Position numbers and translations under genes: made by a program. From a virus, in UHGV virus genome UHGV-1367765: a stretch of 50,578 nt of DNA; one strand, 5' to 3'. How positions within the stretch are numbered: the stretch's first letter is position 1; every line of letters starts with the position of its first letter. Of this stretch, positions 5,972 through 21,446 are shown piece after piece. The notes below the pieces were generated by a model. That model was not told the DNA's origin and searched no databases. It saw only the letters and a program-made list of their open reading frames with translations.

Positions 5972-5999
5972 CAAATTAAAAGCCCTTCATTGCTGAAGG
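5972..5999 (-). terminator. terminator-like hairpin overlapping the 3' end of the 72-aa gene
   Basis: CCTTCA-gcaa-TGAAGG stem followed by a T-rich tract on the minus strand. Confidence 0.35.
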
Positions 6000-6205: not shown

Positions 6206-6303
6206 GACATACCAATAACTCTTGTCTAAAAAGCCAGCAAGATAAAAAGTCAGTATTCACGACCACCAGCGTGTTTACCGTACTGCACCAGGTTTACAGG
6301 TAC

Positions 6304-6330
6304 AAAAAAACCCGCTCGACGGCGGGTTTA
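6304..6330. terminator. A/T-flanked GC hairpin (bidirectional terminator-like)
   Basis: AAACCCGC-tcgacg-GCGGGTTT with an A-run on one side, in the AT-rich region upstream of nmpC. Confidence 0.3.
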
Positions 6331-6754
6331 AGCTGTGTGGCGAAGTAACCACTCTTAACAGCATAACCAATTTTTTACGTACGTAAACCTCTAAACAATA
6401 TTTGTGAGAATGATATCGAGTGTTCAAAACACCACCACAATCACATAAGGAAAAATAAACAAATAATCATTAAATAATTTCCGACGTTATTTTCAATGAG
6501 TTTAAATTAAAGAGATGATTTATAGAACACTTATTAATAACAACCTTTAATATAATTTAGCTACCAAATTTATTTTCTTTCAGAGAATAGTCATGTACAG
6601 CATGCAATAGAAAAAGTTCAGATAAAAATAGAGATCTAGATCACAATTTAAATAAGAATCTAAAACTTATATCTTGAATTAATCACATTGATTAGATGAA
6701 TATTTGTCGCGCAGGGCATCATTTTTTAATAAATGTTCAAAAAAAGGTCTCACG

Positions 6755-7852
6755 ATGAAAAAATTAACAGTGGCAATTTCTGCTGTAGCTGCATCAGTAC
6801 TGCTGGCGATGTCTGCTCAGGCAGCAGAGATTTATAATAAAGACAGTAACAAGCTGGATCTGTACGGAAAAGTTAATGCTAAGCACTACTTCTCCTCTAA
6901 CGAGGCAGATGATGGTGACACTACTTATGTTCGTCTGGGCTTCAAAGGCGAAACCCAAATCAACGATCAACTGACTGGTTTCGGTCAGTGGGAATACGAA
7001 TTCAAAGGCAACCGTGCTGAATCTCAGGGTTCTTCCAAAGATAAAACCCGTCTTGCCTTCGCTGGTCTGAAATTCGGTGACTACGGCTCCATCGATTATG
7101 GTCGTAACTACGGTGTAGCATACGACATCGGTGCGTGGACTGACGTACTGCCAGAATTCGGTGGTGATACCTGGACTCAAACCGACGTATTCATGACTCA
7201 GCGTGCAACTGGTGTTGCAACTTACCGTAATAACGACTTCTTTGGTCTGGTTGATGGCCTGAACTTTGCTGCTCAGTATCAGGGCAAAAATGACCGTAAC
7301 GATTTCGAGAACTACACCGAAGGTAACGGTGATGGCTTCGGTTTCTCTGCTACCTATGAATACGAAGGATTCGGCATTGGTGCGACCTATGCAAAATCTG
7401 ATCGTACCGACACTCAAGTCAATGCAGGGAAAGTTCTTCCTGAAGTATTTGCTTCCGGTAAAAATGCAGAAGTTTGGGCTGCAGGTCTGAAATATGACGC
7501 TAACAACATTTACCTGGCCACTACCTATTCTGAAACCCAGAATATGACGGTGTTTGCTGATCACTTCATTGCTAATAAAGCACAGAACTTCGAAGCTGTT
7601 GCACAATATCAGTTCGATTTCGGTCTGCGTCCGTCCGTTGCTTACCTGCATTCTAAAGGAAAAGACTTGGGTGTTTGGGGTGATCAGGACCTGGTTGAAT
7701 ATGTTGATGTAGGTGCAACTTATTACTTCAACAAAAACATGTCTACTTTCGTTGATTACAAAATCAACCTGCTTGACAAAAATGACTTCACTAAAGCACT
7801 CGGTGTAAGCACTGACAACATCGTTGCTGTAGGATTGGTTTACCAGTTCTAA
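6755..7852 (+). CDS. nmpC: outer-membrane porin, NmpC/Lc (OmpC/OmpF/PhoE family), apparently intact
   Basis: 365 aa with signal peptide [23 protein letters not shown] and porin motifs; near-identical to E. coli NmpC as recalled; sits between Q and the lysis genes on the opposite strand, as in DLP12. Confidence 0.9.
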
Positions 7853-7876
7853 TCTGGTTACTAAAAGATATGTTGC

Positions 7877-7893
7877 GGGAGGCGTTGCCTCCC
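7877..7893. terminator. hairpin just downstream of nmpC
   Basis: GGGAGGC-gtt-GCCTCCC stem-loop about 25 nt after the nmpC stop. Confidence 0.35.
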
Positions 7894-7987
7894 CAACATA
7901 TAAGTGGCTCCCTCAAGCCACTTCCTTTAGAAGCACTACCTTGCTTCTGACTATATAAACCTTCTGTTATATATTACCCTTTATTTT

Positions 7988-8015
7988 GGGGGCGTTGACA
8001 CGCCCCATTTTTAAT
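7988..8015 (+). terminator. Rho-independent terminator downstream of nmpC
   Basis: GGGGCG-ttgaca-CGCCCC followed by ATTTTTAATAAAAT. Confidence 0.5.
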
Positions 8016-8039
8016 AAAATTAAGTGAACAATTAGCGTA

Positions 8040-8423
8040 TCAATTGGACTTCGTAACAACGATATCCATCTCTAACCGGATATCTAATGCCATTAACATT
8101 CCTTCAATTATTCCCTCAGCCTTCTGTAACTTTTTCCCGATATAACCATCAGAGCAACAATGCTTGCTTGCAAGTGACATGAATGTCATACCGCCGACAT
8201 AATAATCCACTAGTAAATCATGCAAATCGCTGTTGTTCTTTTTCAGACGGGCCATACATCCGCAAACGATCATCGCGTCATCATCACAACATTGCGGACG
8301 GGATTTTACTTTTGAAGGAAGTACCCCCTTAAAACCAGCAGCAATGGACGACCAGGTCACATCCTCACGGTTATTAGCTGCCCATGCCCCCCAACGCTCA
8401 AGAACCATCTGAATATCACGCAT
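8040..8423 (-). CDS. late-gene antiterminator Q (phage 82 / QuuD type)
   Basis: [18 protein letters not shown]... matches the Q82 family; cysteine cluster; the listed TTG start is 5 codons upstream of this ATG. Confidence 0.8.
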
Positions 8424-8440
8424 CAACTTTCTCCACAAAA

Positions 8441-9436
8441 TCAGGCCAGCACGCCAGTTGCCAGCGCACGATCGATAAAACGAAATATCAACTCCAGCTG
8501 GGAGCCATACTTCTCTTCAAATGCCGCGGTATCCGCATGCAGCTCGTCGTGATGCTTTCTGCACAAAGGCAATACAAAGAGGTCATGCGCTTTTGTACCC
8601 ATTCCGCCCTGACCGTGGCCTATCAGGTGGTGGGGATCATCAGCAGGCTTTCCACAACATGCACACGGCTGTGTCTTAACCCAGCGCGTGTACTTTTCGT
8701 TAACCCAGCGGCGACGTTTTGGGCGTAACATAAAAGACTCCGGCGACTCCGGATCCACTTTCAGCGCCAGCACCTTTTTCACTTTATCCTGGATGATGCT
8801 GGTGGCAGGAACCGAAGGAACAAGGTCACTTTCCCGGGTGACAGACGGCACAACAGGCTTCGGTAATCTCAGTGCCTTACGGGCTGCACTTTCCGGCAAG
8901 GCTCCCGCCAGGTCATTACGAACCAGCCACCAGCACAGTTCCGGCATTGTCACAACGTGACTGTCATCAAAACCGAGATCCCGACGCACAACAGACAACA
9001 CCCAGCGGGCACAGTTATCCGTTGCCATTGATTCCAGCCGTTCCGTGAACTGATCGCGCAGCTGGTTATCGCAGTGCCAGCACAGACGGATTGCACCCGG
9101 CGCGTGTCGCATTGTGGTCATGTTCTCGCTGTGCCAGTCGGAATGAGGCCACTGGCAGCCTTTTTCACGAAGTAACCAGCTTTCAAGACATTCCACGCCA
9201 CCAGCACGACGGATCACTGCCTCATTGCGGAACACGGCCCGAACGGCAGGATCATCCGCCAGCGGTTGTGATGCCGCCGGAACAGCACCACTGGCGAAAG
9301 ATGAATAACGTTCCGGCTCAGGCTCCAGCAGGACACGCCCCTGCATAAACAGGGGCATCAGCTCTGAACCTGGTCTGAACAATACGATCCCCATACGCGG
9401 GGCAATTTCAGGGGTCAGTAGTGCTCTCACGGTCAC
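8441..9436 (-). CDS. prophage protein with Cys/His-rich zinc-binding C-terminus (DUF968-like)
   Basis: CACCGKP...[10 protein letters not shown]...CRKHHDELH motifs; GTG start; family from memory. Confidence 0.45.
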
Positions 9437-9437
9437 C

Positions 9438-10235
9438 TCAATGAACGATATCGAGCAGCTTTAACAGCTCAGGGAATCGGGATTCGAAGAAATGCGGCTG
9501 CGTCTCGCGCGGATTTGCGGGACTGGTGATGTTCTTGCCGAACATGCAGCCTTTCGCTGTCAGCGACCAGAATTTTTTGATGTTGTTAATCGTGGTACGG
9601 CTGTATCGTTCGCGCTGCTCGACGATCCCCAGCTTCACCATCTGGTGATATGCCTGATTAGCCGTCAGGCGTATACCATACTGTTTCAGCAGTGCACTCA
9701 GTGACAGTGTCGGGCGACTTGAGCCATCGTGTGCATCAGCAGGAGCATCAATGGCATAGCGCGGTGCCAGATTCGGTAAGCCAACAGCCTCCTGGAGTTT
9801 CTGACAGGCTCCAAGCACTGAAGAGTTAGACAGGTTTAATTCCCGGCGCATAAAGTCCAGCAGAATCACACCAGCCTGCATCTTGTCAGCAGCCTGTCCG
9901 GATAATTTTTCCGGTGCGCTGGTTACCATATCGAAAGTACGGATCACCTTCAGATGGAATGACGGGCTGATCCACATTGCATAGGCATACACCAGTTCTT
10001 TGCAGACATACGTCCCCTGGTTATTTCCGCCACGAATAACGTTAACTGGCTCTATATTGACCGAGTTGCAAATCTGCAACTCGCTTATTAAACGTTCAGT
10101 TTGCTCATTGCGGAGCCAGAATGCAGGCTTATGCTTATCCAGAGAACCGGCAGCCCTGTGCAGATCGTTCAGGCTGTAACGCCCATAAGCATCACGACGA
10201 ACTTCAATACCATCAATGACCATCAGATTATTCAT
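9438..10235 (-). CDS. KilA-N domain protein
   Basis: N-terminus MNNLMVIDGIEVRRDAYGRYSLNDLHRAAG is KilA-N-like; GAGGAG RBS before this internal ATG. Confidence 0.6.
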   Translation of the reverse strand: MNNLMVIDGIEVRRDAYGRYSLNDLHRAAGSLDKHKPAFWLRNEQTERLISELQICNSVNIEPVNVIRGGNNQGTYVCKELVYAYAMWISPSFHLKVIRTFDMVTSAPEKLSGQAADKMQAGVILLDFMRRELNLSNSSVLGACQKLQEAVGLPNLAPRYAIDAPADAHDGSSRPTLSLSALLKQYGIRLTANQAYHQMVKLGIVEQRERYSRTTINNIKKFWSLTAKGCMFGKNITSPANPRETQPHFFESRFPELLKLLDIVH

Positions 10236-10254
10236 ACTTCGTTTCTCCTCTTGA

Positions 10255-10644
10255 TCAGGCGGCTGCACCCGCCGTTTTCTCGTACTTACTGATAGTGATC
10301 TCGATCTTCCCTCCCGGGATAACCGGTCCCCACTCAACCAGCATTCTTTTCACCTGACTGTCGTCTTCCCACACACCCGCGTGGGTCAGGGCGTCAAACA
10401 GCGCCTTGTTATAGTTGTCCAGATCGCGGATCCGGTTATCCGGAGGAAACAACACGATCTCCACTGAAGCAGGTGCCGACGTTGGTTTCGGCAGGCGACG
10501 TAACTGCTCAACTATTGCTGCGCACGCCGCGCTCTGGAATTTGCGCCCCGCTGCGCTTATCAGACTCTTACCAGCAAACGCCCCTTTGTTGGGGTGTCGC
10601 CAGTACGTGTTCACGCTGGGCGGGAAAGGCAAGATCAGCTTCAT
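10255..10644 (-). CDS. rusA: Holliday-junction resolvase RusA
   Basis: PPSVNTYW and RDLDNYNKALFDAL motifs of the RusA family. Confidence 0.8.
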   Translation of the reverse strand: MKLILPFPPSVNTYWRHPNKGAFAGKSLISAAGRKFQSAACAAIVEQLRRLPKPTSAPASVEIVLFPPDNRIRDLDNYNKALFDALTHAGVWEDDSQVKRMLVEWGPVIPGGKIEITISKYEKTAGAAA

Positions 10645-10967
10645 ACTTTCAGGCCCCTCTCATGTAACCAGTGGGCTGCACGCAGCCTGCCGTTTTCCTC
10701 ACCGGCAAGCAGTGCGCGGATAATCCCGACCGCCTCGCTGTCGTCGTCCTTCACCGCGGTATGAAGCGTTATCCCCCGGGCCACGCCACGCTTTATCGTG
10801 ATGACGCCTTTTTTCTCCAGTGCACGAAGATGCTCTACCGCTGCATTCACTGAACGGTATCCCAGCATGGTTGCCACCTCCTGATTGGTTGGCGGAAAGC
10901 CACGCTCTTTCTGGTAAGAAATCAGCATATCCAGCACCTGCTGCTGGCATTGAGTTAACGTCGTCAT
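10641..10967 (-). CDS. LexA-like winged-helix DNA-binding protein without a peptidase domain
   Basis: TQCQQQVLDMLISYQKERGFPPTNQEVATMLGYRSVNAAVEHLRALEKKGVI resembles the LexA N-terminal domain; stop overlaps the rusA start (ATGA). Confidence 0.55.
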   Translation of the reverse strand: MTTLTQCQQQVLDMLISYQKERGFPPTNQEVATMLGYRSVNAAVEHLRALEKKGVITIKRGVARGITLHTAVKDDDSEAVGIIRALLAGEENGRLRAAHWLHERGLKV

Positions 10968-11455
10968 TACGCCCCCACGTAATTCCCTGACAGATACCAC
11001 TCATCACTCGATACAGCGCGCTTGCTGCTTTTCCGTAAACACTGCTCACGACGCGCCAGAAAATTGTTTCGTTCTGGCTGGGAGTGGCTTTCACGGAATG
11101 CCGCCATCCACACCGTTGCAGCACGACGGTATAAGCCCCTGGACTCCAGTTCTTCTGACTGGCGGGTCAGGCACAAAATCTCCCGCGGGTCGTTAGTGCC
11201 GACATAGAAATTGCGCACAGGTCTGGTTTCACGAACTGGTTGCGGTTCCGGTTCCTGCGCTCTCTCAGTCAGGCGCGGGAAATGTCTGCGTGTATCTCCT
11301 TCACAACGGTGAGCCACACGCCCACTCTGACGTAACTTGCTTGCTGACTGCAGAACGCGCTGCCGTGAGTAACCTGCAAAAGCATCCGCAATGTCTCCGG
11401 AAGTACATCCCGGATGGGCTTCAATGAATTTCTGAACTTCATTCAAAAGACTCAT
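10967..11455 (-). CDS. PerC-family transcriptional regulator-like protein
   Basis: C-terminal LESRGLYRRAATVWMAAF...RREQCL resembles the PerC motif; translationally coupled (TAATG) to the LexA-like gene. Confidence 0.5.
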   Translation of the reverse strand: MSLLNEVQKFIEAHPGCTSGDIADAFAGYSRQRVLQSASKLRQSGRVAHRCEGDTRRHFPRLTERAQEPEPQPVRETRPVRNFYVGTNDPREILCLTRQSEELESRGLYRRAATVWMAAFRESHSQPERNNFLARREQCLRKSSKRAVSSDEWYLSGNYVGA

Positions 11456-11457
11456 GA

Positions 11458-12180
11458 TCACCCCCTGAATCCTGCCGGGATCTGGCTGTAGTCCACGTTG
11501 TCGTAACTGGATTTGAAGTACGGGTCTTCGCGTTTTTCGGTGTACGTGCTGACGGACGGTGATAAGCGCAGGGAAAGCTCATCCCATTTTTCCCGCAACT
11601 TCGACGGGCTGAGCACGTTACGGCACCAGAACGGATCGCGGCTGACGCGGCTGTACATCTCGCAGATTTGTTTGTGAGTACGACCATCCTGCACACACAT
11701 CAGGCGAATTTCGTTTGCCCAGGCTGTCCAGTTCGGTTCTTTGGGACGAACCACCTCGCCGTCACATTCGGCGGCTTGCTCGTACAGGGCGATGATTTTT
11801 TTCCAGAGCCACTGTGCGCAGGTCAAATCATCCTGCGTTCCCCACTGGCGCTTTTTAGGGCTGAATACAACCGCATCAGGATGGCGAGTTAAAAAATCCT
11901 GTTCATCCGTCTGCGTGTCCGGTTGCGAAGCGTCCGGACGAGAAGGTTTTTTATCTGACGGATCATGTTTTGATTTTACTGACGGATCCCCGCCAGATTC
12001 TGACGGGTGAAAACCCGCTTTTTTGCCAGATTTCGACGCATCAAATTTTGACGGGTCAGATTTTGATGCGTCAGATTTTGACGGGTCAGAATCTGACAGT
12101 TGAGAAAATGCCGCTGCCTGAAGCTTCGCAACGTTAAGCTGATAAACATTCGACGCATTGCGGTTATCGGAGTTACGCAA
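11458..12180 (-). pseudogene. 5'-truncated replication-initiator (O-like) remnant with a repeat-encoded Asp/Ser/Lys-rich segment
   Basis: No in-frame ATG near the 5' end (listed start is TTG); iteron-like DNA repeats encode DPSKSDASKSDPSKFDASKS; abuts a divergent plus-strand gene. Confidence 0.35.
11950..12105. repeat. iteron-like direct repeats (about 8 copies of TTTTGACGGGTCAGA-like units)
   Basis: Visible tandem units, each with a small TGAC..GTCA dyad, at roughly 16-17 bp spacing. Confidence 0.5.
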
Positions 12181-12543
12181 ATGCGCATGAATGTTTTCGA
12201 AATGGAAGGGTTTCTTCGTGGGAGATGTGTACCGCGAGATCTGAAAGTGAATGAAACAGATGCTGAATACCTGGTGCGTAAATTCGATGCGCTTGAAGCT
12301 AAATGTGCAGCACAGGAAAACAAAGTAATACCAGTGTCAACTGAACTGCCACCAGCAAATGAAAGTGTTTTGTTATTCGATGCTAACGGAGAAGGCTGGC
12401 TAATTGGCTGGCGTTCTCTCTGGTACACCTGGGGACAAAAAGAAACCGGAGAATGGCAGTGGACATTTCAGGTCGGGAGCCTTGAAAACGTCAATATCAC
12501 TCACTGGGCAGTAATGCCAAAAGCACCGGAGGCTGGAGCATAA
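12181..12543 (+). CDS. DUF551-like prophage protein
   Basis: ATG with GGAG RBS; Trp-rich C-terminus ending NITHWAVMPKAP resembles the DUF551 signature. Confidence 0.45.
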   Translation: MRMNVFEMEGFLRGRCVPRDLKVNETDAEYLVRKFDALEAKCAAQENKVIPVSTELPPANESVLLFDANGEGWLIGWRSLWYTWGQKETGEWQWTFQVGSLENVNITHWAVMPKAPEAGA

Positions 12544-12848
12544 TGACCACTTTTACCGACAAAGAACTGATTAAAGAAATTAAAGAGCGTATCAGCAGCC
12601 TTGACGTGCGAGACGATATTGAGCGCCGTGCTTATGAAATCGCACTCCTATCTCTGGAAGTAGAACCAGATGAACGCGAAGCTTATGAATTATTCATGGA
12701 AAAGCGTTTCGGTGACTTAGTAGATCGTCGGAGAGCAAAAAACGGCGATAACGAATACATGGCATGGGATATGACTCTCGGTTGGATCGTCTGGCAGCAA
12801 CGAGCAGGTATCCATTTTTCAACAATGTCACAACAAGAGGTGAAATAA
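12543..12848 (+). CDS. hypothetical protein (101 aa)
   Basis: ATG overlaps the upstream stop (TAATG); continuous with xis and int on the same strand. Confidence 0.45.
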   Translation: MTTFTDKELIKEIKERISSLDVRDDIERRAYEIALLSLEVEPDEREAYELFMEKRFGDLVDRRRAKNGDNEYMAWDMTLGWIVWQQRAGIHFSTMSQQEVK

Positions 12849-13198
12849 TGGAGCCATACAGCCTCACACTCGATGAGGCCTGTCATTTTCTTAAGATATC
12901 CAGACCGACTGCCATTAACTGGATACGCACAGGGCGTCTTCAGGCAACACGCAAAGATCCCACTAAGAATAAATCTCCTTACCTCACAACACGACAAGCC
13001 TGCATTGCGGCTCTTCAGTCTCCGCTGCATACTGTCCAGGTGAGCGCGGGTGATGGCATAACAGAGGAAAGAAAATGTCACTCTTCCGCAGAGGTGAAAT
13101 ATGGTACGCCAGTTTCACATTGCCGAACGGTAAAAGATTTAAACAGTCTCTTGGAACAAAGGACAAAAGGCAGGCGACAGAACTCCATGACAAGCTAA
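12848..13198 (+). CDS. xis: excisionase-like DNA-binding protein
   Basis: HTH-like N-terminus ([26 protein letters not shown]); immediately upstream of and overlapping int. Confidence 0.5.
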
Positions 13199-14238
13199 AG
13201 GCTGAAGCATGGCGGGTCAGCAAACTTGGTGAAATACCTGATATAACGTTCGAGGAAGCGTGTGTCAGGTGGCTTGAAGAGAAAGCACATAAAAAATCAC
13301 TGGACGATGACAAAAGCCGGATCGGATTCTGGCTTCAACATTTCGCAGGAATGCAACTAAGAGACATTACTGAATCAAAAATTTATTCAGCAATGCAGAA
13401 AATGACGAACCGGCGTCATGAGGAAAACTGGAAACTCAGGGCAGAAGCATGCAGAAAAAAAGGGAAACCTGTTCCAGAATACACGCCAAAACCAGCGTCC
13501 GTTGCAACGAAGGCTACGCATCTTTCATTTATAAAGGCCCTACTAAGAGCCGCAGAGCGTGAATGGAAAATGCTGGATAAGGCACCAATTATTAAAGTGC
13601 CTCAACCAAAGAATAAACGGATCCGCTGGCTGGAGCCCCATGAAGCACAAAGGCTGATTGATGAATGTCCGGAGCCATTAAAGTCTGTTGTTGAATTTGC
13701 ACTGGCAACAGGCTTAAGACGCTCGAACATCATCAACCTTGAATGGCAACAAATAGACATGCAGCGCCGGGTGGCATGGATAAACCCGGAAGAGAGTAAA
13801 TCAAACCGCGCAATTGGCGTTGCGCTGAATGATACTGCATGTCGCGTTTTGAAAAAACAAATCGGGAATCATCACCGTTGGGTATTTGTGTACAAGGAAA
13901 GCTGTACCAAACCAGACGGAACGAAAGCGCCAACAGTAAGGAAGATGCGGTATGACGCAAACACAGCCTGGAAAGCGGCGCTGAGACGGGCTGGTATTGA
14001 TGATTTCAGATTTCACGACTTGAGACACACCTGGGCAAGTTGGCTGGTTCAAGCCGGAGTCCCGTTGTCAGTGTTACAGGAAATGGGAGGCTGGGAGTCT
14101 ATCGAAATGGTTCGTCGATATGCTCACCTTGCACCTAATCACCTTACCGAACACGCACGGCAAATAGACTCGATCCTGAACCCATCGGTCCCAAATTTGT
14201 CCCAGTCAAAAAATAAGGAAGGTACTAATGATGTGTAA
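13075..14238 (+). CDS. int: tyrosine integrase (lambdoid Int family)
   Basis: 387 aa with the R..HxxR..Y catalytic pattern ([10 protein letters not shown]...VRRYAH); very similar to E. coli lambdoid prophage integrases as recalled; 3' end faces the att core. Confidence 0.9.
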
Positions 14239-14252
14239 CTTATTGATTTAAA

Positions 14253-14298
14253 TGGTGCCGATAATAGGAGTCGAACCTACGACCTTCGCATTACGAAT
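14253..14298 (-). other. att core: 46-nt copy of the 3' end of tRNA-Thr (thrW-type), not a complete tRNA
   Basis: Minus strand reads ...ATTCGTAATGCGAAGGTCGTAGGTTCGACTCCTATTATCGGCACCA; similarity to the tRNA stops upstream of this; 14 bp after the int stop. Confidence 0.7.
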
Positions 14299-14460
14299 CT
14301 GTAGCACCAATCATAACTATCTGTTTTAGCAAGCATTAACCGCATTCACTAAGCTATAGTTGATGGCACAAACAGAAAGCTGATGCATGATGTTGTCATG
14401 TGTATGTCACAAATACGGCACAACGATCTTCAAACATGTAGCCACACATCCACAGAAGAG

Positions 14461-14494
14461 CACAAAGCCTTGCAATCCAGTGCAAAGCTTTGTG
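14461..14494. other. extended imperfect hairpin in the inter-prophage junction
   Basis: CACAAAGC-C-TTGCA-atccag-TGCAA-A-GCTTTGTG nested inverted repeats followed by a T-rich tract. Confidence 0.3.
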
Positions 14495-14793
14495 CGCCTC
14501 AGTTTTGTCTAAGCGTTCTACTGAAAACATAGTAAAATCGGTAACTGCTGGAAATCATTCACTACTCGCACTATCGAAAGTTCGCCAGCCAGCCGCAGCA
14601 CGTTCTTGCATACGGCGTGTCTGCGGTTTCATTCATCTCCGACCGGAAACTTCTTATACAAAGTCGATACGCCAACATCATAGATGATCACCACCTTCTG
14701 GCGAGAAACTCCTGATGCAATATAATTTGTGGCTGGATTATCTGGACGCACTGGAACTGGTTGATACCTCCAGTGCTCCAGATATTGAATGGC

Positions 14794-15396
14794 CTACGCC
14801 TCCAGCAGTTCAGGCCAGATGACATCCGGCGCGGTGCTGGTATCTGTTGCCGTCACCGCGTCAATGTAATCCAGCACGGCGTTAAGTCGGGTTGTTTCTG
14901 CCTGCGTCAACTTCCGTCCGGCCTGTAATTTCAGCTGAATCAGACTAATGGAAGCCATTGCTGCATCAATCAGTGACTGGCGCTGTGCTTCTGCCGCTTC
15001 TACTGCGGCGCTATGCTGTGCCTCGGTATCCGTCACCCATTTCTCGCCATCCCATTGATCATATGGCGTGGATGGTGCTGCGGTGGTTGTTCCTTCCGGG
15101 TATTCTCCCAACTGTGAAACTTTCACAGGATTGCCAGTGGTGGTGCTGTAAACCGTTTCGCCGCGATGGTCTGGCACATATTCCCATGATTTTAAATCCA
15201 CAGAGCGGCAAATTGTATAACCATCCTTATATGCACCAGGGGCGTCTAAACAGGAATGCGCAGGGATACCGACACCAATGGCAAGATATTCATTTGAAGA
15301 GGAAATATATTCCCGAGTTTCACCATCATAGTTATAAACAGTAATATCCCCTGCCTTCGTAGCAATAAACTCGCTATTTAATACAGCGTTATCCAT
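14794..15396 (-). CDS. tail fibre assembly protein (Tfa)
   Basis: 200 aa, C-terminus ...DTSTAPDVIWPELLEA typical of TfaE/TfaQ-type chaperones; directly after the tail fibre gene. Confidence 0.7.
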   Translation of the reverse strand: MDNAVLNSEFIATKAGDITVYNYDGETREYISSSNEYLAIGVGIPAHSCLDAPGAYKDGYTICRSVDLKSWEYVPDHRGETVYSTTTGNPVKVSQLGEYPEGTTTAAPSTPYDQWDGEKWVTDTEAQHSAAVEAAEAQRQSLIDAAMASISLIQLKLQAGRKLTQAETTRLNAVLDYIDAVTATDTSTAPDVIWPELLEA

Positions 15397-16229
15397 TATG
15401 CAGCCCTCACAATGTAGTTAAATGCAACGTTCACCGGGCGAGTTTCATTGGCGGTATTTGCCACCCTTGACATATCGAAATCAAATGTTGTGACACCATC
15501 CCCTCCACCAGTGCCTGTAACCGCTGTTAATCCAGTAGTCAGAAAGTTATTACCGTTATTACGAAATGGACCACTGACAACTAAGTCATTAAAAAGCTGA
15601 ATTTTCCCTATTGAACCAGTGACGTTTTGCATTGCATGCTCCTGTGAAGCCAATAGAATCCTTCCTGGGTCAATGCCTCTCCCGTCATCCCAGCCACGAA
15701 TAAACTCACCGCGTAAATCAGGCAATTTATTTGTCGGGTAAGCCTTTGCCAGTTCCGGATACTCTTCGGCAGAAAAAGGCGCACCATTGCATTTCAGCCA
15801 GCCTGTTGGCGGAGTGGCTAAAGGCCACGGAACGGGCGCACCAACAGGTAATGCAGAACCTTCTCCCAAACCAAGGTTTTCGAGAGCCGTTTTCACCGTG
15901 CCATCCGATTTGATATCACCAAACGGATTCTTGCGGCTCAGGTATTCAACAGCAAACCCCGATCCCAGCAATTCAACAAAACCGGGCAGATCACCATTAT
16001 CAAGCACATCCCGTTGCGTTTTATCACTTACAAACTGGGCCAGAGCTGCAGCAATAAAGCTGGCCTGTCGAATAACCTTATTGACTTGCGCACTGGATGC
16101 TTTCCCTGCTGTAAATCCGGATAAAAGCGCAGGCAACGCTTCCCATTCCTCCTGCGACATAACATTGGCATTCCGATCAGTTGCAAACGCTTTAAAGTCA
16201 TTTTTCGCCATCAGAGTAATACTCCCCAT
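15396..16229 (-). CDS. tail fibre protein
   Basis: Contains the conserved [24 protein letters not shown] segment shared with the prophage A fibre; follows the baseplate genes. Confidence 0.65.
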
Positions 16230-16891
16230 GCCCCTACATCAAAACCACTGATGTATTCGTTATCAATATCAAACCCAAATAATTTAGAACCCTCGGAAGG
16301 TGTTTCAACCGAAGGCGTTTCAACGTCACCGGCCCATACACCAGCTGCTTTAACGGTGAGATAGCCCTGTTTGATAGCGGCGATCAGTTCGAGAGAGACA
16401 TCAGCAATATCGGTTTCCGGGAATACCCAGACCGATATCGTCATGTCCTGGTTGTCGACGATCTGCATCCTCAGGCCTGAGCCTGCGGTAGCAGCGTCAA
16501 GGATGGGAGGCAGAGAGTCGTTCCGACCATCCCAGTTGTTGATAGCGATTTTCGCTTTCAGAATGATGCGGTACGTCTCATCACTCAGCGTCGTATAGCC
16601 ATAATCAGGATCATATGGCCCTTGCCAGATGCCCTGGTCATATCCAAGCCCGTCAGTGTCCCAACTAAAATAAACGCCGCTAATTGGCTCGCTGACTATG
16701 CGACTACGACCAATCCACAGACCGAGCGTGTCGAGCTGCACGCCGACCGCCGTATCGATATCGAAGGCTGTTACAAGCCCTGACATAGTGCTGGACACAT
16801 CAATCAGCGGGCGAGTACTCAGATCTATATGGTCAAAAAAGAGTGGCTTGGTAGCGTGGTAGTTCGTGATAAGTTCGGTGTATTTGCTCAT
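16211..16891 (-). CDS. tail protein (DUF2313 / Mu gp48-like)
   Basis: Position between the baseplate J-like gene and the fibre; start taken at internal ATG (MSKYTELI). Confidence 0.55.
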
Positions 16892-18087
16892 GAGGTCACC
16901 GTGATAGTGACGTGACTCGCAACGCATGACGCAGATTCGTCATAAGCAATATCGATATTTCCGCTTGCGACTGAGTCAGAGGATTTGCCGATGAGCAGCT
17001 CCTGAATGTCGTAATAGCGAGCACTGCCTCCGCTTACCACGCCAAGGTTTGCCGGGGAATAAATACGACTCAGCAGAACGTCATCGCCAATTGCCAGGCC
17101 ATTTATATAATCGGCAACAGCCTGTTTTATCTGCTCGCCGATTTGAGATGTATACCCGGTAAAAACTTTCAGGGTAATGGCTACAAAAATTGGCACATCG
17201 GTAGAACGCGAAAAACTGATGACGTGAGGATTACCGTAAGTATCCGGCACCGTGACAGAAGTTGTCCCGTAGGTTGCCGTTCCCTGTCCTTTATTCCCCC
17301 TGATGGTCTGGGCTATTTCGGTAACATCTCCACCATCGACGATGGCGGAAATTGAGTGCGGCGGCAGCCCGTTGCTGTCGGTTGCCCCTGTGTCGTTCTC
17401 ATACAGCTTGTGACGTGTCACGCCAGCAACGTTAGCTATTGCACCGTCGACACTTTCAAACGGTGTGATCGATGGTAGCGCGACGCTTTGCCCCTGCCGA
17501 ATGCGCAGCTCTGCGTCGGTTTCTGCTGGTGAACCGACAGTAGCCGCTGCTGGGTTGGTTACCGACACCCAGCCGCGAGTCGGTGTGTTAATGGTGGTAA
17601 TAGTCCCGGCCATCGCCGCAACCGAACCGCTATTCGCACATGTGGCCGTCACCAGCACAGTACCATCAACCCCGATTGCTACACTCGCGGGAAAATTCCA
17701 GATAATGCCGTTTTTATCCCGTGCGGAGCCATTCGTGATAGTCGTGCCCGCCGTACCGGTTAACAGAAGGTCAGCAGTAGAGTTTGTCGCTACTTTTCGC
17801 GTGATCCCGTTAATTTTCACATTGCTGCTAAGCGCTGCGGCCTGCGCTGTCGTCGGTGAAAACGAGTTGTAGATCTCGATAGCGGTATTGTTAGCATCAT
17901 GCACAGCCAGAGCCACCAGCGCGACCATCTGCCCGTCTTTGCTGTCTGGTTCTAGGTAGGCATCACTACCGTAAATCTGCCTGAAATAGCTGGTCAGTGT
18001 ATCTAGGATTGTCTGGTAATCAGGCGCACTAATCCCCTGGGCGGTTACCGTTGCCGATAGCCCCAGCGTGTCGAGGTTCAAAGCCAT
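16888..18087 (-). CDS. baseplate J-like protein (Mu gp47 / P2 gpJ family)
   Basis: 399 aa; position and composition consistent with baseplate J. Confidence 0.7.
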   Translation of the reverse strand: MALNLDTLGLSATVTAQGISAPDYQTILDTLTSYFRQIYGSDAYLEPDSKDGQMVALVALAVHDANNTAIEIYNSFSPTTAQAAALSSNVKINGITRKVATNSTADLLLTGTAGTTITNGSARDKNGIIWNFPASVAIGVDGTVLVTATCANSGSVAAMAGTITTINTPTRGWVSVTNPAAATVGSPAETDAELRIRQGQSVALPSITPFESVDGAIANVAGVTRHKLYENDTGATDSNGLPPHSISAIVDGGDVTEIAQTIRGNKGQGTATYGTTSVTVPDTYGNPHVISFSRSTDVPIFVAITLKVFTGYTSQIGEQIKQAVADYINGLAIGDDVLLSRIYSPANLGVVSGGSARYYDIQELLIGKSSDSVASGNIDIAYDESASCVASHVTITVTS

Positions 18088-18441
18088 TTATGCCTCGCTT
18101 GTTACAGTCGTCTGGCCGTAGATTGTGTCAATGGAGGAAGTGAAAGTGACGCGGCGGCTGGTGCCGTCATAATTGGTATCGAAGGAAAGAATCGACAGAA
18201 CGCCCGGCGTGTCCTGTATGCGTTCGCGTATAGCCAGGATGTAGACGTCTGATCGCTGTTTCCCAAGCACTGACTGAACATACGGCGTGCCTTCCGTCAG
18301 ATCGAGAAACCACTGACCGCGCCAGAGCTCGAAACGGGTTTTTACGGCCTGGGCGACACATTCCGGACTGTCGATAAGGAAGGTGTCGTCACCTTGCCCG
18401 AAAGTGTAATCGCCGTCAGCATCTTCTCGTCGGTATCGCAT
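18088..18441 (-). CDS. baseplate wedge protein (Mu gp46 / P2 gpW, GPW/gp25 family)
   Basis: 117 aa, adjacent to the J-like gene. Confidence 0.65.
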   Translation of the reverse strand: MRYRREDADGDYTFGQGDDTFLIDSPECVAQAVKTRFELWRGQWFLDLTEGTPYVQSVLGKQRSDVYILAIRERIQDTPGVLSILSFDTNYDGTSRRVTFTSSIDTIYGQTTVTSEA

Positions 18442-19181
18442 TATTGCGGCCCTCCAGTAGTTCCCCCGCCTGTCTGAACTCCGCCATGTTTATGCGTGGC
18501 GACACTTATACCTGAAGCTGTCACATCATTCGTTACCGTAACCGGCCCAAGCATCGTCGCAGTACCACCACTTTCTCCCATTCCCTGAGACAGATTGCCA
18601 TTAATCGTTACGTTGCCGTTCAGCGTGATAGTCGGGGATGTGATTGTCGTTCCACCTTCAGCCGTAGCCGTGAGCTGGCCCGGTGTTTGAACGGTGATGT
18701 TATGTCCTGCGGAAACCTCTACGAACGCCGCACCATCATCGGTTCGCAGCTGCGCGGCGCTGGTACTGATACCGCTGATTTTTTGCGCTTGCGACTGCGG
18801 GCCAACGATGGCGAACGCATCAGATAAGTCATGCTGGCGCGGGTCGACGGTCTCCTGAACGCCGCCGCTCTGCCACCAGAAATCGATGCAACGGTCGGCA
18901 AAGATCAGCAGGCACTCATCGCCTTCTTTTACCGGAAAGGTCAGCGTGCAACCGCCTCCGCGCGGGAAGATGACAGGCACATCCACCAGCGGTTTTAATT
19001 CGGTGGAGTCGTCGCCAACAATACCGCGAAGCGCCACCTCTACTGTGCAGGTTACAGCGTCAGGATCGAACGACTGAATGATGCCAGGCATCGCTACGCG
19101 CATCTGAGTAGACACCGAATCGGCAATGGCCTGCGCGGTCTGCTGCTCGCCGCCGATCTGTGATTGAGTAGGAATTGGCAT
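18441..19181 (-). CDS. baseplate spike / assembly protein V (Mu gp45-like)
   Basis: 246 aa with a Gly/Thr-rich repetitive C-terminus typical of spike proteins. Confidence 0.65.
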   Translation of the reverse strand: MPIPTQSQIGGEQQTAQAIADSVSTQMRVAMPGIIQSFDPDAVTCTVEVALRGIVGDDSTELKPLVDVPVIFPRGGGCTLTFPVKEGDECLLIFADRCIDFWWQSGGVQETVDPRQHDLSDAFAIVGPQSQAQKISGISTSAAQLRTDDGAAFVEVSAGHNITVQTPGQLTATAEGGTTITSPTITLNGNVTINGNLSQGMGESGGTATMLGPVTVTNDVTASGISVATHKHGGVQTGGGTTGGPQ

Positions 19182-19192
19182 AAAAACCCCAT

Positions 19193-19216
19193 AAAAAAAC
19201 CAGCCGAAGCTGGTTT
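19193..19216 (-). terminator. Rho-independent terminator (minus strand) just upstream of the spike gene
   Basis: CCAGC-cgaa-GCTGG hairpin followed by a run of 7 T on the minus strand. Confidence 0.45.
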
Positions 19217-19403
19217 GGTATCAATTATCTCTTAGTAACTAAGCTACATCAGTGTGAAGTAAGGCTTTTCCGCTGCAATGGCACATATTCACAAGGTGTA
19301 TTAGGATATATTTGCAACAAGTAAGCATTAAAAATCAATTTCAGCCATGAAGCCGCCATAGAGTGGACCTGCACCATCGCATTCTTGACTACAGGAGTAA
19401 CAA

Positions 19404-19694
19404 ATGGGCTTTAGATTTCGCAAAAGAATCCGGATTGCGCCCGGACTCGCGATCAACATTAGCAAAAGCGGAGTAAGCACTTCAATTGGTGGTAAAGGTT
19501 CCACCATTAACATCGGGAAAAAAGGCGTAAAGATGACAAATGGCCTTCCCGGCACGGGGCTGTCGCATACCACTAACCTTTACTCTCCCGGGAAATCGAC
19601 AGAAAAAAAACAACTTACTCATAAGCAAAAAATAATTAGAAACATCCTGTTCGTAATTATTGTGTTTATTATAATTAAAGCTCAATATTTTTGA
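19404..19694 (+). CDS. DUF4236-like small membrane protein (inserted gene, opposite strand to the tail operon)
   Basis: MGFRFRKRIRIAPGLAINISKSGVSTSIGGKG signature; C-terminal hydrophobic helix; AGGAG RBS. Confidence 0.6.
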   Translation: MGFRFRKRIRIAPGLAINISKSGVSTSIGGKGSTINIGKKGVKMTNGLPGTGLSHTTNLYSPGKSTEKKQLTHKQKIIRNILFVIIVFIIIKAQYF

Positions 19695-19699
19695 CGCAT

Positions 19700-19730
19700 G
19701 CCCGCCTATCTGGCGGGCTATTTTACTTTT
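19700..19730 (+). terminator. Rho-independent terminator after the DUF4236 gene
   Basis: GCCCGCC-tatct-GGCGGGC followed by TATTTTACTTTT. Confidence 0.45.
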
Positions 19731-20071
19731 CGGCAGTCGTATGTTGCATACTGACGCGGCGCATTCATGCTGGCTTGCAGCCACTGGACATTGAGAATGG
19801 CTTTTCCGTTGCGCCCAATGAACTCCATTCCCACCCAGCGACCGGGTTGATCGGTAGCAACAACCCACTCAAATTTTACATTGTTATAATCACCTTCTTT
19901 TTTCAGAAAAGTGATTTTTTGAGTTTCTGGTTTTGCGCCATTAATTCTTGCAAGCCCATCATCCGCCCAGTGCACCCTGTAGTTACCACATTGTGAATCA
20001 GCAAATGCACTCAAGGATAAAAACGAAGTCAGCAGAAAAATTACGGCTGCTACACGCTTCACAATATTCAC
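19718..20071 (-). CDS. small secreted protein with signal peptide (inserted gene in the tail operon)
   Basis: N-terminus VAAVIFLLTSFLSLSAFA then a mature domain with two Cys; GTG start directly after the upstream stop. Confidence 0.45.
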   Translation of the reverse strand: MNIVKRVAAVIFLLTSFLSLSAFADSQCGNYRVHWADDGLARINGAKPETQKITFLKKEGDYNNVKFEWVVATDQPGRWVGMEFIGRNGKAILNVQWLQASMNAPRQYATYDCRKVK

Positions 20072-20072
20072 C

Positions 20073-21137
20073 TCAATAGTTGGTTTTCAGCATGGCATTC
20101 TGGCTGTAAAGCTCGCGAGCCCCACGCGCAAAACACATCAAATCCATGTACCACGCCTGACCTCTGGTGTCGCCAGTATAGTCGATAGCTTTGACGATAT
20201 AAACGCCATCTGTCGCAATGCTGGCAGCCTGTGACGTTGTGCCGGTCAGTACGCGGTTGCCGTTCTCTTCTGTTTCGGTGATGCGACCGGGCGACTGTGC
20301 TATTTCGCTATTACCGAGCGCGGCGCGGTACACCGAAGCCTGATCGAGCTGGATAAGACCATTAATACGGATGTTTGGGTTTATCAGGCACCGCACGTTT
20401 ACTCCGCCGCCCATCGTTTGTTGCGGCATACCGATCAGGCCAGTATCGGCATTCAACACAATGGCTTCGTGAATATATTTATCCTCCGGCACCATCTGGA
20501 CCTGACCATCCACCAGCTGCCATGTCGCTTTGCACTGCGCAGCAATATTATCCATCACGTTACGGGTGGATGAATAAATCGCACGGCCACGAGGAAACAC
20601 GGTATCAGGAAAATCGCCGGTAATGCCCTGTGTCACGCCGAACGCGTTGAAATCCTGCATCGTCGCCCGGTGCAGATCCGCAACGGTATAGCCAGCGGCA
20701 AGCGTGGTGATGGTGGTCGCATAGAGGAACGCTTCGTGATCACCAATGGCCTGAATCAACACCCAGGAATCCGTAATGTTGTCCTTCCCGGTGACGGTGA
20801 AGCGAATATCACCGTCAAAAATCAGGCCGTAGTTCTGACCGTTCACCTGCCCTATCTGGTCTGGTGAAATCTCCCGGGACACACCAACCTGGCTCGCATC
20901 AACATCCGGCGCTATACCGTCATACCCGGCAATGATGCGAATTTTTGCAAACTCCTGCCCCAGTATCTTGTTCGTGGTATCGGTCGAAAGGTTGTAAATT
21001 TTTACGTTCGCCACTCGCGGCCAGCGTGTATCTGCCCACTCGATCTGGAACGTGACCTTAAAATCAGACAGGGAAACGCCCTGCCCGTTCTGGTCCAACA
21101 GCTGCAACTCAAAATGGCGCATCCAGTTAAGAGACAT
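20073..21137 (-). CDS. tail/baseplate hub protein (Mu P gp44 / P2 gpD-like)
   Basis: 354 aa between the post-tape-measure genes and the baseplate genes. Confidence 0.55.
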   Translation of the reverse strand: MSLNWMRHFELQLLDQNGQGVSLSDFKVTFQIEWADTRWPRVANVKIYNLSTDTTNKILGQEFAKIRIIAGYDGIAPDVDASQVGVSREISPDQIGQVNGQNYGLIFDGDIRFTVTGKDNITDSWVLIQAIGDHEAFLYATTITTLAAGYTVADLHRATMQDFNAFGVTQGITGDFPDTVFPRGRAIYSSTRNVMDNIAAQCKATWQLVDGQVQMVPEDKYIHEAIVLNADTGLIGMPQQTMGGGVNVRCLINPNIRINGLIQLDQASVYRAALGNSEIAQSPGRITETEENGNRVLTGTTSQAASIATDGVYIVKAIDYTGDTRGQAWYMDLMCFARGARELYSQNAMLKTNY

Positions 21138-21139
21138 TT

Positions 21140-21445
21140 CTACTCCTGTACGAAAATGAGGTGGCTGTATGTGCCGAGGTTGGTTTTGGTGGGCTCGTCT
21201 GGTGCGCCCTTATCGGTCGCCACCACCAGCGCGCCATCAATGCCAAGCTGTGGATATTGTCGTAATAGGTTCACGCCGGTCAGTAGAGGTACGCCAGAGA
21301 GAAGCGCGGCACCGCCGCTATCCATCACGTCCATAATCCAGCCAGCCGCATCACGCCAGATGATCCTGAGTGTATACGTGGTATTGCCCAGCAAAACGCG
21401 GAACTGCTGATTGTCAGGAGAAAGCGGTATTTCGTTAAACTGCAT
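21140..21445 (-). CDS. putative tail protein
   Basis: Co-linear in the tail operon; no recognisable motif. Confidence 0.35.
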   Translation of the reverse strand: MQFNEIPLSPDNQQFRVLLGNTTYTLRIIWRDAAGWIMDVMDSGGAALLSGVPLLTGVNLLRQYPQLGIDGALVVATDKGAPDEPTKTNLGTYSHLIFVQE

Positions 21446-21446
21446 A

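What the first reader, a model, noticed from the sequence alone, without database searches (positions are those of the whole stretch)
14253..14298. Two lambdoid prophages joined at a 46-bp tRNA-Thr 3'-end att core
The integrase of prophage A ends 14 bp before a 46-nt copy of the 3' end of a thrW-type tRNA-Thr, and the tail-fibre end of prophage B lies 500 bp beyond it. Both prophages have the same gene polarity, as expected for tandem or sequential integration at one att site. Prophage A lacks immunity and head genes, so the array may behave as a helper/satellite pair or a recombination substrate.
Basis: partly seen in the sequence, partly recalled or inferred. Interest (0 to 1): 0.48.

Follow-up and report, generated by a model that had tools for sequence, protein, structure and literature searches.

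The report
Tandem prophages at thrW att site
Two prophages sit head-to-tail, joined by the well-known 46-bp attachment core that P22 and Shigella SfIV/SfX-type phages share with the threonine tRNA gene thrW; this arrangement is ordinary and has already been made in the laboratory.

Summary
Window 14253-14298 is an exact copy, on the minus strand, of the last 46 nt of thrW (anticodon loop to CCA). It lies 14 bp after the stop codon of a 387-aa tyrosine integrase and 495 bp before a tail-fibre assembly gene. The integrase is 100% identical to Shigella phage SfIV Int and 89.9% to P22 Int.

Left of the core is an SfIV/SfV-like prophage remnant. Three short-microhomology deletions removed its tail, head/terminase and immunity modules. 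Right of the core is a lambdoid myovirus prophage whose att arm matches the attP arm of phages SfX and HK75.

The site is therefore a hybrid, attP-like junction made by site-specific integration of the second phage into the thrW rebuilt by the first. E. coli VTB97584v carries the same array in full: three exact cores, with intact thrW and proA at the far end. Forty-eight of 5426 complete E. coli genomes share the junction. A laboratory SfX lysogen of S. flexneri has the same junction (94% identity).

The window is a contig that ends in IS1 at both ends, so the second att copy and the intact tRNA cannot be seen. The helper/satellite idea is not supported: prophage A is decayed. Known phenomenon, low interest.

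The parts
1..55 (.). Terminal 55 nt of an IS1 copy (contig end). It is the exact inverted copy of 50524-50578.
   Evidence: matches the end of an annotated IS1 in L003, and window 1-56 is 100% the reverse complement of 50523-50578.
55..1543 (-). Prophage A: remnant of the tail-fibre / invertible-segment region of an SfV-like (Mu-type tail) prophage, cut by IS1 on the left.
   Evidence: 98.2% identical to L004 12001-13489. Deletion junction 1 lies at about 1543 and removes about 9.6 kb of baseplate-to-sheath genes.
1543..2454 (-). Prophage A: truncated tail-terminator gene, a hypothetical gene and a truncated head-closure gene.
   Evidence: matches L001 6001-6918 and L004 23082-23994. Deletion junction 2 lies at 2454/2455 and removes 6.7 kb, from head closure through capsid, portal and terminase into the HNH gene.
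2455..12166 (-). Prophage A late-regulatory, lysis and nin block. Contents: Bor/Iss lipoprotein 3119-3412 (+); Rz 3444-3905; lysozyme 3902-4378; holin 4382-4708; DNA methyltransferase 4785-5837; porin 6755-7852 (+); Q antiterminator 8040-8423; DUF968; KilA-N; RusA; PerC-like; and a replication gene lacking its N-terminus, 11458-12166.
   Evidence: (99.8% identical to L001 13620-23332, annotation transferred) and Pfam.
12163..13198 (+). Prophage A early-left remnant and excisionase-like gene. Deletion junction 3 at 12163-12166 removes 3.8 kb, including the cI-like repressor, the cro-like gene and ymfL. Then come a hypothetical gene, yfdT 12543-12848 and the HTH_17 Xis-like gene 12764-13198.
13075..14238 (+). 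Tyrosine integrase of prophage A, 387 aa and intact.
   Evidence: 100% identical to SfIV Int and 89.9% to P22 Int. Pfam Phage_integrase, E = 3e-48; catalytic R215, H314-x-x-R317, W340 and Y349, aligned to HP1 integrase.
14239..14252 (.). 14-bp spacer CTTATTGATTTAAA between the int stop codon and the core. It belongs to the int-side (P') arm and is conserved in both Int lineages.
   Evidence: It is absent from the chromosomal side of the leftmost att site in VTB97584v, so it is not part of the core.
14253..14298 (-). 46-bp att core, equal to the 3' 46 nt of thrW tRNA-Thr(CGU). It is the crossover region of a hybrid attP-like site.
   Evidence: Literature: the 46-bp attP of SfIV/SfI/SfV (PMC3851460) and the P22 att site in thrW (bioRxiv 10.1101/2020.10.05.325894).
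14299..14629 (.). Tail-side (P) att arm of prophage B, of the SfX/HK75 type.
   Evidence: matches HK75 attP; 94% identical to the printed SfX attP and to the attR of the laboratory SfX lysogen; 98.9% identical to the middle junction of VTB97584v.
14460..14495 (-). Stable 15-bp-stem hairpin inside the P arm, also present in the SfX attP. It is probably the terminator at the end of the late/tail operon.
   Evidence: terminator-like; -32.1 kcal/mol, z = -5.6 on the minus strand.
14794..16229 (-). Prophage B tail-fibre assembly gene (14794-15396) and tail-fibre gene (15396-16229).
   Evidence: Caudo_TAP and Collar domains.
16211..35464 (-). Prophage B myovirus structural module: baseplate, tape-measure/transglycosylase, sheath, major head protein, portal, TerL and small terminase.
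   Evidence: PHROGs; synteny with VTB97584v, Citrobacter phage Omnitron, vB_EcoM-611R5 and SEN34.
36799..38994 (-). Prophage B lysis cassette (Rz, lysozyme, holin; 36799-38016), tRNA-Thr(UGU) and tRNA-Asn (38259-38414), and Q antiterminator (38506-38994).
38991..46123 (.). Prophage B nin region, DnaB-like helicase (42275-43726), O-like initiator (43701-44591), cII (44774-45112), cro-like gene, and cI-type S24 repressor (45491-46123, +).
46124..50523 (+). Prophage B early-left operon, including Erf (48902-49537) and Abc2 (49944-50240), interrupted by IS1 before xis/int.
50524..50578 (.). Terminal 55 nt of a second IS1 copy (contig end), in inverted orientation relative to the copy at 1-55.

Best explanation
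The 46-mer is the crossover core of a phage attachment site in thrW, and it sits between two prophages integrated in tandem.

Prophage A (window 55-14252) is the remnant of an SfIV/SfV-like phage. It integrated by Int-mediated recombination between its 46-bp attP core and the 3' end of thrW, which rebuilt an intact thrW next to its int gene.

A second phage, prophage B (14299 to at least 50523), is a lambdoid myovirus with an SfX/HK75-type att arm. It later integrated into that rebuilt thrW. The old junction (A int, core, 5' half of thrW) was thereby split. The window keeps A int, the core and B's tail-side arm. The intact thrW moved to the far, proA-proximal end of B, which lies outside this contig.

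The middle site is thus attP-like, combining the P' arm of A with the P arm of B. It serves as the int-side end of A and the tail-side end of B at once. Prophage A then decayed, or had already decayed, through three illegitimate deletions and an IS1 insertion.

Shown here: the sequence identities, the breakpoints, the gene content, and the complete analogue in another genome. Inferred: the order of arrival, that B's own Int is of the SfX/HK75 type, and that the site is still recombinogenic.
For: Core and boundaries
- The core is an exact match to the thrW 3' end and unique in the window.
- Homology to SfIV attP (int side plus core, 99.5%) ends at 14298. Many E. coli genomes with a single prophage match up to 14298 and then continue into thrW and proA.
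- From 14299 the sequence matches the attP arm of the free phage HK75 and of SfX.

Integrase
- Int is intact, 100% identical to SfIV Int and 89.9% to P22 Int, with the catalytic residues present.

Two separate phages
- There are two independent sets of Q and lysis genes.

Related genomes
- E. coli VTB97584v has the same array complete. Its three exact cores sit at the left flank, the middle, and inside intact thrW followed by proA-proB. The second prophage there carries its own Int, 56% identical to A's.
- The int-core-B-arm junction occurs in 48 of 5426 complete E. coli genomes, in S. flexneri SFBU1023 and in E. coli ECMA0423.

Experimental precedent
- A laboratory SfX lysogen of S. flexneri has the SfX arm, core and resident phage int junction, 94% identical to window 14221-14509. 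There the incoming phage took the intact thrW next to proA (PMC3306764 text and supplement).
- Tandem prophages at thrW are also reported in O157:H7 (PMC9997748).

Decay of prophage A
- A has three deletions relative to a 99.8%-identical intact prophage. Junction overlaps are 1-4 nt and each junction cuts genes mid-ORF.
Against: - The second att copy, B's integrase and the intact thrW are not in the window, because both contig ends stop in IS1. That this particular array still ends in thrW-proA is inferred from analogues. An IS1-mediated rearrangement beyond 50523 cannot be excluded.
- The structure alone does not fix the order of arrival.
- No Int arm-type binding sites could be recognised in the arms, so functionality of the hybrid site is not shown.
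Confidence: 0.93

Rival explanations
1. The junction is the native attP of one phage, and the window is a single element: a circularly permuted phage genome or one continuous prophage, not two.
For: Locally, the order int, core, P arm, tail fibre is exactly the layout of a free-phage attP. The 70-nt spacer + core + arm string is present verbatim in the free phage HK75 and in about ten other phage-sized IMG/VR contigs.
Against: - The window has two Q genes, two lysis cassettes and remnants of a second, Mu-type tail module.
- The left part is colinear at 99.8% with an SfIV-like prophage that elsewhere stands alone at thrW.
- The arm type (SfX/HK75) and the Int type (SfIV/P22, only 56% identical to HK75 Int) belong to different att modules.
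- Both window ends are IS1, not phage ends.
- VTB97584v shows three cores.
Confidence: 0.02
2. The two elements were joined by RecA-dependent homologous recombination, for example an exchange between a resident prophage and an incoming or neighbouring one within shared sequence, and not by integrase action at the core.
For: - Lambdoid prophages recombine frequently.
- The shared stretch at the att sites is 60 bp (14-bp spacer plus 46-bp core).
- PMC9997748 describes a second prophage acquired by homologous recombination at another locus.
Against: - The switch of homology sits exactly at the edges of the known Int crossover core.
- It reproduces the junction obtained experimentally by SfX lysogenisation.
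- 60 bp is a poor RecA substrate compared with the longer homologies available elsewhere in the two prophages.
- The full three-core architecture in VTB97584v is what site-specific integration predicts.
Confidence: 0.04
3. Prophage A is a functional satellite or parasite that depends on prophage B as helper for packaging and spread.
For: A lacks head, most tail, terminase and immunity genes. It keeps an intact int and xis-like gene next to an attP-like site, plus Q, lysis and accessory (moron) genes.
Against: - All three gaps are deletions relative to a 99.8%-identical complete phage, and they truncate genes mid-ORF: HNH/head-closure, tail terminator/tail fibre, and replication gene/yfdR.
- The replication initiator gene is truncated.
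- The repressor and the early-promoter region, the small terminase gene and the adjoining DNA are all gone. No primase or capsid-redirecting gene is present.
- A's structural remnants (HK97-type head, Mu-type tail) are unrelated to B's virion module.
- The same three deletions are found in none of the 5426 complete E. coli genomes. That argues against a spreading element.
Confidence: 0.03

Closest known systems
attP/attB core of Shigella flexneri serotype-converting phages SfIV, SfI, SfV, SfII and of Salmonella phage P22 (thrW)
   Same: The 46-bp core is the same and equals the 3' end of thrW. The core lies just downstream of int. Int is 100% identical to SfIV Int and 89.9% to P22 Int. The int-side arm plus core is 99.5% identical to SfIV (PMC3851460).
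   Different: In SfIV the other arm leads into gtrA-gtrB-gtrIV. Here it is an SfX/HK75-type arm leading into the tail-fibre genes of a different phage. No gtr genes lie next to the site.
Laboratory and natural tandem lysogens at thrW: S. flexneri 036_X / 036_1d (SfX, then SfI, next to a resident cryptic int) and the tandem prophages at thrW of E. coli O157:H7
   Same: The junction has the same architecture: SfX-type arm, 46-bp core, then the resident SfIV-type int. It is 94% identical over 290 bp. The incoming phage occupies the proA-proximal thrW (PMC3306764). Deletion of parts of one partner is also reported (PMC9997748).
   Different: The second phage here is not a gtr-carrying serotype converter. 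It is a lambdoid myovirus related to Omnitron, vB_EcoM-611R5 and SEN34. The array is additionally broken by two IS1 copies.
E. coli VTB97584v chromosome (NZ_CP178707.1), thrW region
   Same: It has the same pair of prophage types in the same order and polarity. Its middle junction is 98.9% identical across window 12163-14629. It shows the complete array, with three exact cores and thrW-proA.
   Different: There prophage A' is full length (39 kb, with head, tail and immunity genes). Large parts of B' are only 77-95% identical to B.
Escherichia phage HK75 attP
   Same: The core and the 14-bp spacer are exact, and the P arm matches window 14299-14614 at about 96%.
   Different: HK75 is a siphovirus whose Int is only 56% identical to the Int in the window.

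Membership tests
P22 / SfIV-type thrW attachment site (46-bp core) | The core is identical to the 3' 46 nt of thrW tRNA-Thr(CGU). | tested here: met
   46/46 identity to the annotated thrW in L001 and L003 and to the attP core in SfIV and HK75.
P22 / SfIV-type thrW attachment site (46-bp core) | Homology between att sites of different kinds (attP, attB-derived, hybrid) switches at the edges of the core. | tested here: met
   The three cores of VTB97584v, SfIV and the window share only the 46 bp on the tail side. On the int side they additionally share the 14-bp phage spacer, which is absent from the chromosomal left flank.
P22 / SfIV-type thrW attachment site (46-bp core) | The core is adjacent to a cognate integrase gene. 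| tested here: met
   The int stop codon lies 14 bp from the core. Int is 100% identical to SfIV Int.
P22 / SfIV-type thrW attachment site (46-bp core) | The site is actually recombined by Int (with or without Xis). | not testable with these tools
   This needs induction or PCR assays. The only support is by analogy to the SfX/SfI experiments (PMC3306764).
Tyrosine recombinase / phage integrase (Pfam PF00589) | A catalytic domain with the R...HxxR...H/W...Y residues. | tested here: met
   PF00589 at 164 bits. R215, H314, R317, W340 and Y349 align to the HP1 integrase catalytic residues.
Tandem (poly)lysogen at one att site | Two independent phage gene sets of the same polarity on either side of an att copy whose two arms come from different phages. 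| tested here: met
   There are two Q genes and two lysis cassettes. The arms are SfIV-type on one side and SfX/HK75-type on the other.
Tandem (poly)lysogen at one att site | Outer att copies, with the intact tRNA at the end next to the second integrase. | tested here: inconclusive
   These are not in the window, which holds one core only, because the contig ends in IS1. They are present in the analogue VTB97584v.
Phage satellite (P4-like / PICI-like) | Own replication initiator or primase, and its own regulatory switch. | tested here: not met
   The O-like gene lacks its N-terminus, and the repressor, cro-like gene and early-promoter region are deleted. No primase was seen among the annotated genes.
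Phage satellite (P4-like / PICI-like) | A compact, intact gene set evolved to hijack helper capsids (capsid-size or packaging redirection). | tested here: not met
   The gaps are deletions that cut ORFs, relative to a 99.8%-identical full phage. The small terminase gene and the adjoining DNA are lost. A dedicated satellite-model search was not run.

The most novel reading that the evidence does not exclude
The decayed prophage A may still matter functionally. Its intact SfIV-type int and xis-like gene sit directly on the hybrid attP-like site. They could act in trans on the array, for example by excising or rearranging prophage B, whose own xis/int lie beyond an IS1 insertion that separates them from the early-left operon. 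They could also keep the thrW locus open for capture of further phages. That would be a cross-complementing pair, not a dead remnant next to a live phage. A second possibility is that the conserved hairpin in the B arm now lies downstream of A's int and modulates it, as lambda's sib site does.
Probability: 0.07. Interest if true: 0.3.

Novelty: already known. Interest (0 to 1): 0.1.

Why it matters
It matters mainly for annotation. The site marks the exact boundary between two prophages that automated tools would probably merge into one 50-kb 'phage'. It also shows that the left one is a defective remnant.

It is one more example of thrW as a hot spot for repeated phage integration by two Int lineages (SfIV/P22-type and SfX/HK75-type, 56% identical) that use the same 46-bp core. 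It does not open a new question.

Tried and rejected
- **Arm-type Int binding sites.** I looked for repeated motifs in the two arms. The repeat finder gave only 9-nt two-copy chance repeats. A TGGGACAAA-like motif, seen doubled at the int 3' end, is not enriched (10 found against 13.6 expected). No claim is made.
- **Partial tRNA in Rfam.** A permissive scan of 14150-14850 did not report the tRNA fragment. It gave only a sub-threshold CssrB hit. The tRNA identity therefore rests on direct alignment to annotated thrW.
- **Source genome.** I tried to find it in order to see the outer att sites. The single genome-contig scan, run with the 70-nt junction string, returned only S. flexneri SFBU1023 and E. 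coli ECMA0423. Both carry a different, more reduced remnant. No complete E. coli genome has the same three deletions.
- **Single phage with an internal attP.** Considered and rejected.
- **Helper/satellite pair.** Considered and rejected (see rival explanations).
- **ORF 14490-14687 (65 aa) in the B arm.** It has no Pfam match and is treated as spurious.

Full report
**1. The observation**

Window 14253-14298 reads TGGTGCCGATAATAGGAGTCGAACCTACGACCTTCGCATTACGAAT. It occurs once in the window. It never appears in 100 shuffles, even with 3 mismatches allowed.

I aligned it, as the reverse complement, with the annotated tRNA-Thr genes next to proA in two E. coli chromosomes (L001, L003). It is identical to their last 46 nt, from the anticodon loop (ATTCGTAAT, anticodon CGT) to the CCA end. 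Identity stops exactly where the intact genes continue with the 5' half of the tRNA.

ARAGORN and Rfam find only two tRNAs in the window, both at 38.3 kb and none here. So this is a fragment and not a gene.

The 387-codon ORF 13075-14238 ends 14 bp before it. The first gene on the other side is a tail-fibre assembly gene (Caudo_TAP) at 14794-15396 on the minus strand, 495 bp away.

**2. The integrase and the left arm**

- The ORF is a tyrosine recombinase (PF00589, 164 bits).
- Its catalytic residues R215, H314-x-x-R317, W340 and Y349 align to those of HP1 integrase.
- It is 100% identical over 387 aa to the integrase of Shigella phage SfIV and 89.9% to P22 Int.
- An HTH_17 excisionase-like gene overlaps its start, as in SfIV.
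- The DNA from 12163 to 14298 is 99.5% identical to SfIV, and that match ends exactly at the last base of the core.
- In SfIV the other side of the core leads into gtrA-gtrB-gtrIV. That is not what follows here.
- The SfIV paper states that a 46-bp att site, identical to that of SfI and SfV, flanks the prophage (PMC3851460). P22-type phages rebuild thrW on integration (bioRxiv 10.1101/2020.10.05.325894).

**3. Prophage A is a decayed SfIV/SfV-like prophage**

In E. coli strain 5735 a complete prophage sits alone at thrW-proA. It carries a P27-type terminase, an HK97-type head, a Mu-type contractile tail, a LexA-like repressor, a Q gene and a lysis cassette.

The window matches it in three blocks: 1538-2455 (94%), 2454-12166 (99.8%) and 12163-14298 (99.2%). 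A further block, 55-1543, matches the tail-fibre region of a sister prophage.

Relative to these relatives, three segments are missing:

- about 9.6 kb, from baseplate to sheath, with the junction at about 1543;
- 6.7 kb, from head closure through capsid, portal and terminase into the HNH gene, with the junction at 2454/5;
- 3.8 kb, covering the repressor, the cro-like gene, ymfL and the N-terminus of the replication gene, with the junction at 12163-6.

Each junction overlaps by only 1-4 nt and cuts genes mid-ORF.

What remains is as follows:

- Bor/Iss lipoprotein
- Rz, lysozyme and holin
- a DNA methyltransferase
- a porin
- Q antiterminator
- DUF968, KilA-N, RusA and a PerC-like gene
- the xis-like gene and int

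None of the 5426 complete E. coli genomes carries the same deletions.

**4. Prophage B and the right arm**

From 14299 the window holds a lambdoid phage with a myovirus virion module. In order it contains:

- tail fibre, baseplate, tape measure/transglycosylase, sheath, major head protein, portal and TerL;
- a lysis cassette, tRNA-Thr(UGU) and tRNA-Asn, and Q;
- the nin genes, a DnaB-like helicase and an O-like initiator;
- cII, a cro-like gene and a cI-type S24 repressor;
- Erf and Abc2.

Its nearest described relatives are Citrobacter phage Omnitron, vB_EcoM-611R5 and SEN34.

The first 330 bp after the core (14299-14629) match the attP arm of the free phage HK75. There the exact core lies between the tail-fibre gene and int.

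They also match the attP of phage SfX as printed in the supplement of PMC3306764.

HK75 Int, and the Int of the equivalent prophage in E. coli VTB97584v, are only 56% identical to the window's Int. So the two arms of the site in the window belong to two different att/Int modules that share one core.

**5. Proof of the tandem model from a complete genome**

E. coli VTB97584v (NZ_CP178707.1) has the same pair in the same order. Its layout is:

- chromosomal flank;
- core;
- a full-length A-type prophage ending in the same int;
- core;
- a B-type prophage from tail fibre to early-left genes, followed by its xis-like gene and int;
- core within an intact thrW;
- proA and proB.

The three cores are exact. 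Outside them, the three sites share only the 14-bp spacer on the int side, which is phage DNA and is absent from the chromosomal left flank. The middle junction there is 98.9% identical to window 12163-14629.

A 301-bp probe across the junction is fully covered in 48 of 5426 complete E. coli genomes. A 70-nt spacer + core + arm string is found in S. flexneri SFBU1023 and E. coli ECMA0423. As a native attP, it is also found in HK75 and other phage-sized IMG/VR contigs.

**6. Mechanism and order of events**

The structure is what two successive Int-mediated integrations at thrW produce.

There is an experimental precedent. S. flexneri strain 036 already carries a resident 'putative phage int' next to thrW, with the same int 3' end and spacer as here. 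Lysogenisation with SfX produced a junction of SfX arm, core and resident int. That junction aligns to window 14221-14509 at 94% (273/290). A further infection with SfI again used the att site that holds the intact thrW next to proA (PMC3306764).

By that logic, B is the proA-proximal prophage and so the later arrival. This fits A's decay. The order is an inference and is not shown.

The middle site is an attP-like hybrid (P arm of B, core, P' arm of A). It functions as the int-side end of A and the tail-side end of B. Excision of B would use it together with the site in thrW, leaving A int next to thrW. I could not recognise arm-type Int sites, so activity is untested.

**7. What cannot be seen**

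Window 1-55 and 50524-50578 are the same IS1 terminus in inverted orientation. This is the signature of a short-read contig that stops in repeats.

The left IS1 interrupts A's tail-fibre segment. The right IS1 interrupts B's early-left operon about 280 bp after abc2, before xis/int. Relatives have int a few kb further on.

B's integrase, the intact thrW and the outer att copies are therefore outside the window. Whether an IS1-mediated rearrangement has occurred there is unknown.

**8. Rival explanations**

- **A single element with an internal attP.** This is contradicted by the duplicated Q and lysis modules, the unrelated structural remnants, the mismatch between arm type and Int type, and the three-core analogue.
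- **Homologous recombination instead of site-specific recombination.** This is unlikely, because the switch of homology is exactly at the edges of the known crossover core and reproduces the experimental product.
- **A helper/satellite relationship.** This is not supported. A has lost its repressor, part of its replication gene and its packaging region through ORF-cutting deletions, and it has no satellite hallmarks.

As a recombination substrate the array offers only a 725-bp lysis segment at 85% identity and a 79-bp tail-fibre segment in direct orientation.

**9. Verdict**

This is a textbook tandem prophage array at the thrW att site used by P22 and by SfIV/SfX-type phages. It is already documented in Shigella and E. 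coli, both experimentally and by comparative genomics (PMC3306764, PMC9997748, PMC3851460).

Its value is for correct prophage boundary annotation. Interest is low.

Noticed in passing
window 1-55 and 50524-50578: Both contig ends are the same 55-nt IS1 terminus in inverted orientation (100% reverse complements). The window is therefore a whole short-read contig bounded by two IS1 copies with the same end facing inward. One copy sits in prophage A's invertible tail-fibre segment, the other about 280 bp after abc2 in prophage B.
   Followed up: partly
window 1543, 2454-2455 and 12163-12166: Three deletion junctions in prophage A have only 1-4 nt of overlap, and each fuses truncated genes: tail terminator to tail fibre, HNH to head closure, and replication gene to yfdR. 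None of the 5426 complete E. coli genomes shares them.
   Followed up: yes
window 3119-3412 (+) and 6755-7852 (+): Accessory (moron) genes are retained in the defective prophage A: a Bor/Iss serum-resistance lipoprotein (PF06291) and a full-length general porin (PF00267). Both are transcribed opposite to the surrounding late genes.
   Followed up: partly
window 14460-14495: A strong hairpin lies in prophage B's att arm (15-bp stem, -32.1 kcal/mol on the minus strand, z = -5.6) and is conserved in the published SfX attP. It is probably the late-operon terminator. In the tandem array it now lies about 220 bp downstream of prophage A's int, recalling lambda's sib site.
   Followed up: partly
window 14594-14651 (-): A sub-threshold Rfam hit (20 bits against a gathering score of 76, E = 0.09) matches the 3' hairpin of CssrB, a chromosome-encoded Shigella sRNA, inside the att arm of prophage B. 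It is probably only a shared terminator-like hairpin.
   Followed up: no
window 38259-38414 (-): Phage-borne tRNA-Thr(UGU) and tRNA-Asn(GUU) lie between Q and the holin gene of prophage B, the position reported for Sf6 and other P22-like phages. They are unrelated to the thrW fragment at the att site.
   Followed up: partly
window 3636-4360 vs 36988-37691; 1259-1337 vs 15860-15938: The two prophages share a 725-bp lysis segment (85%) and a 79-bp tail-fibre segment (97.5%), both in direct orientation. These are potential sites for RecA-mediated deletion or chimera formation.
   Followed up: partly
L008 (S. flexneri SFBU1023, CP182556.1) and L009 (E. coli ECMA0423, CP178302.1): Both genomes carry the same int, core and SfX-type arm junction, but with an even smaller remnant on the int side. 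There a tail-fibre fragment matching window 1258-1543 lies only about 1.3 kb from the int block matching 12940-14508.
   Followed up: no
E. coli NT1F10 (NZ_CP075462.1), hits H25 and H145: This genome has the int-core-arm junction at about 3.640 Mb and a 99.8%-identical int next to thrW at about 3.705 Mb. The second prophage of its array therefore carries the SfIV-type int together with the SfX-type arm, which shows that arms and int genes reassort.
   Followed up: no
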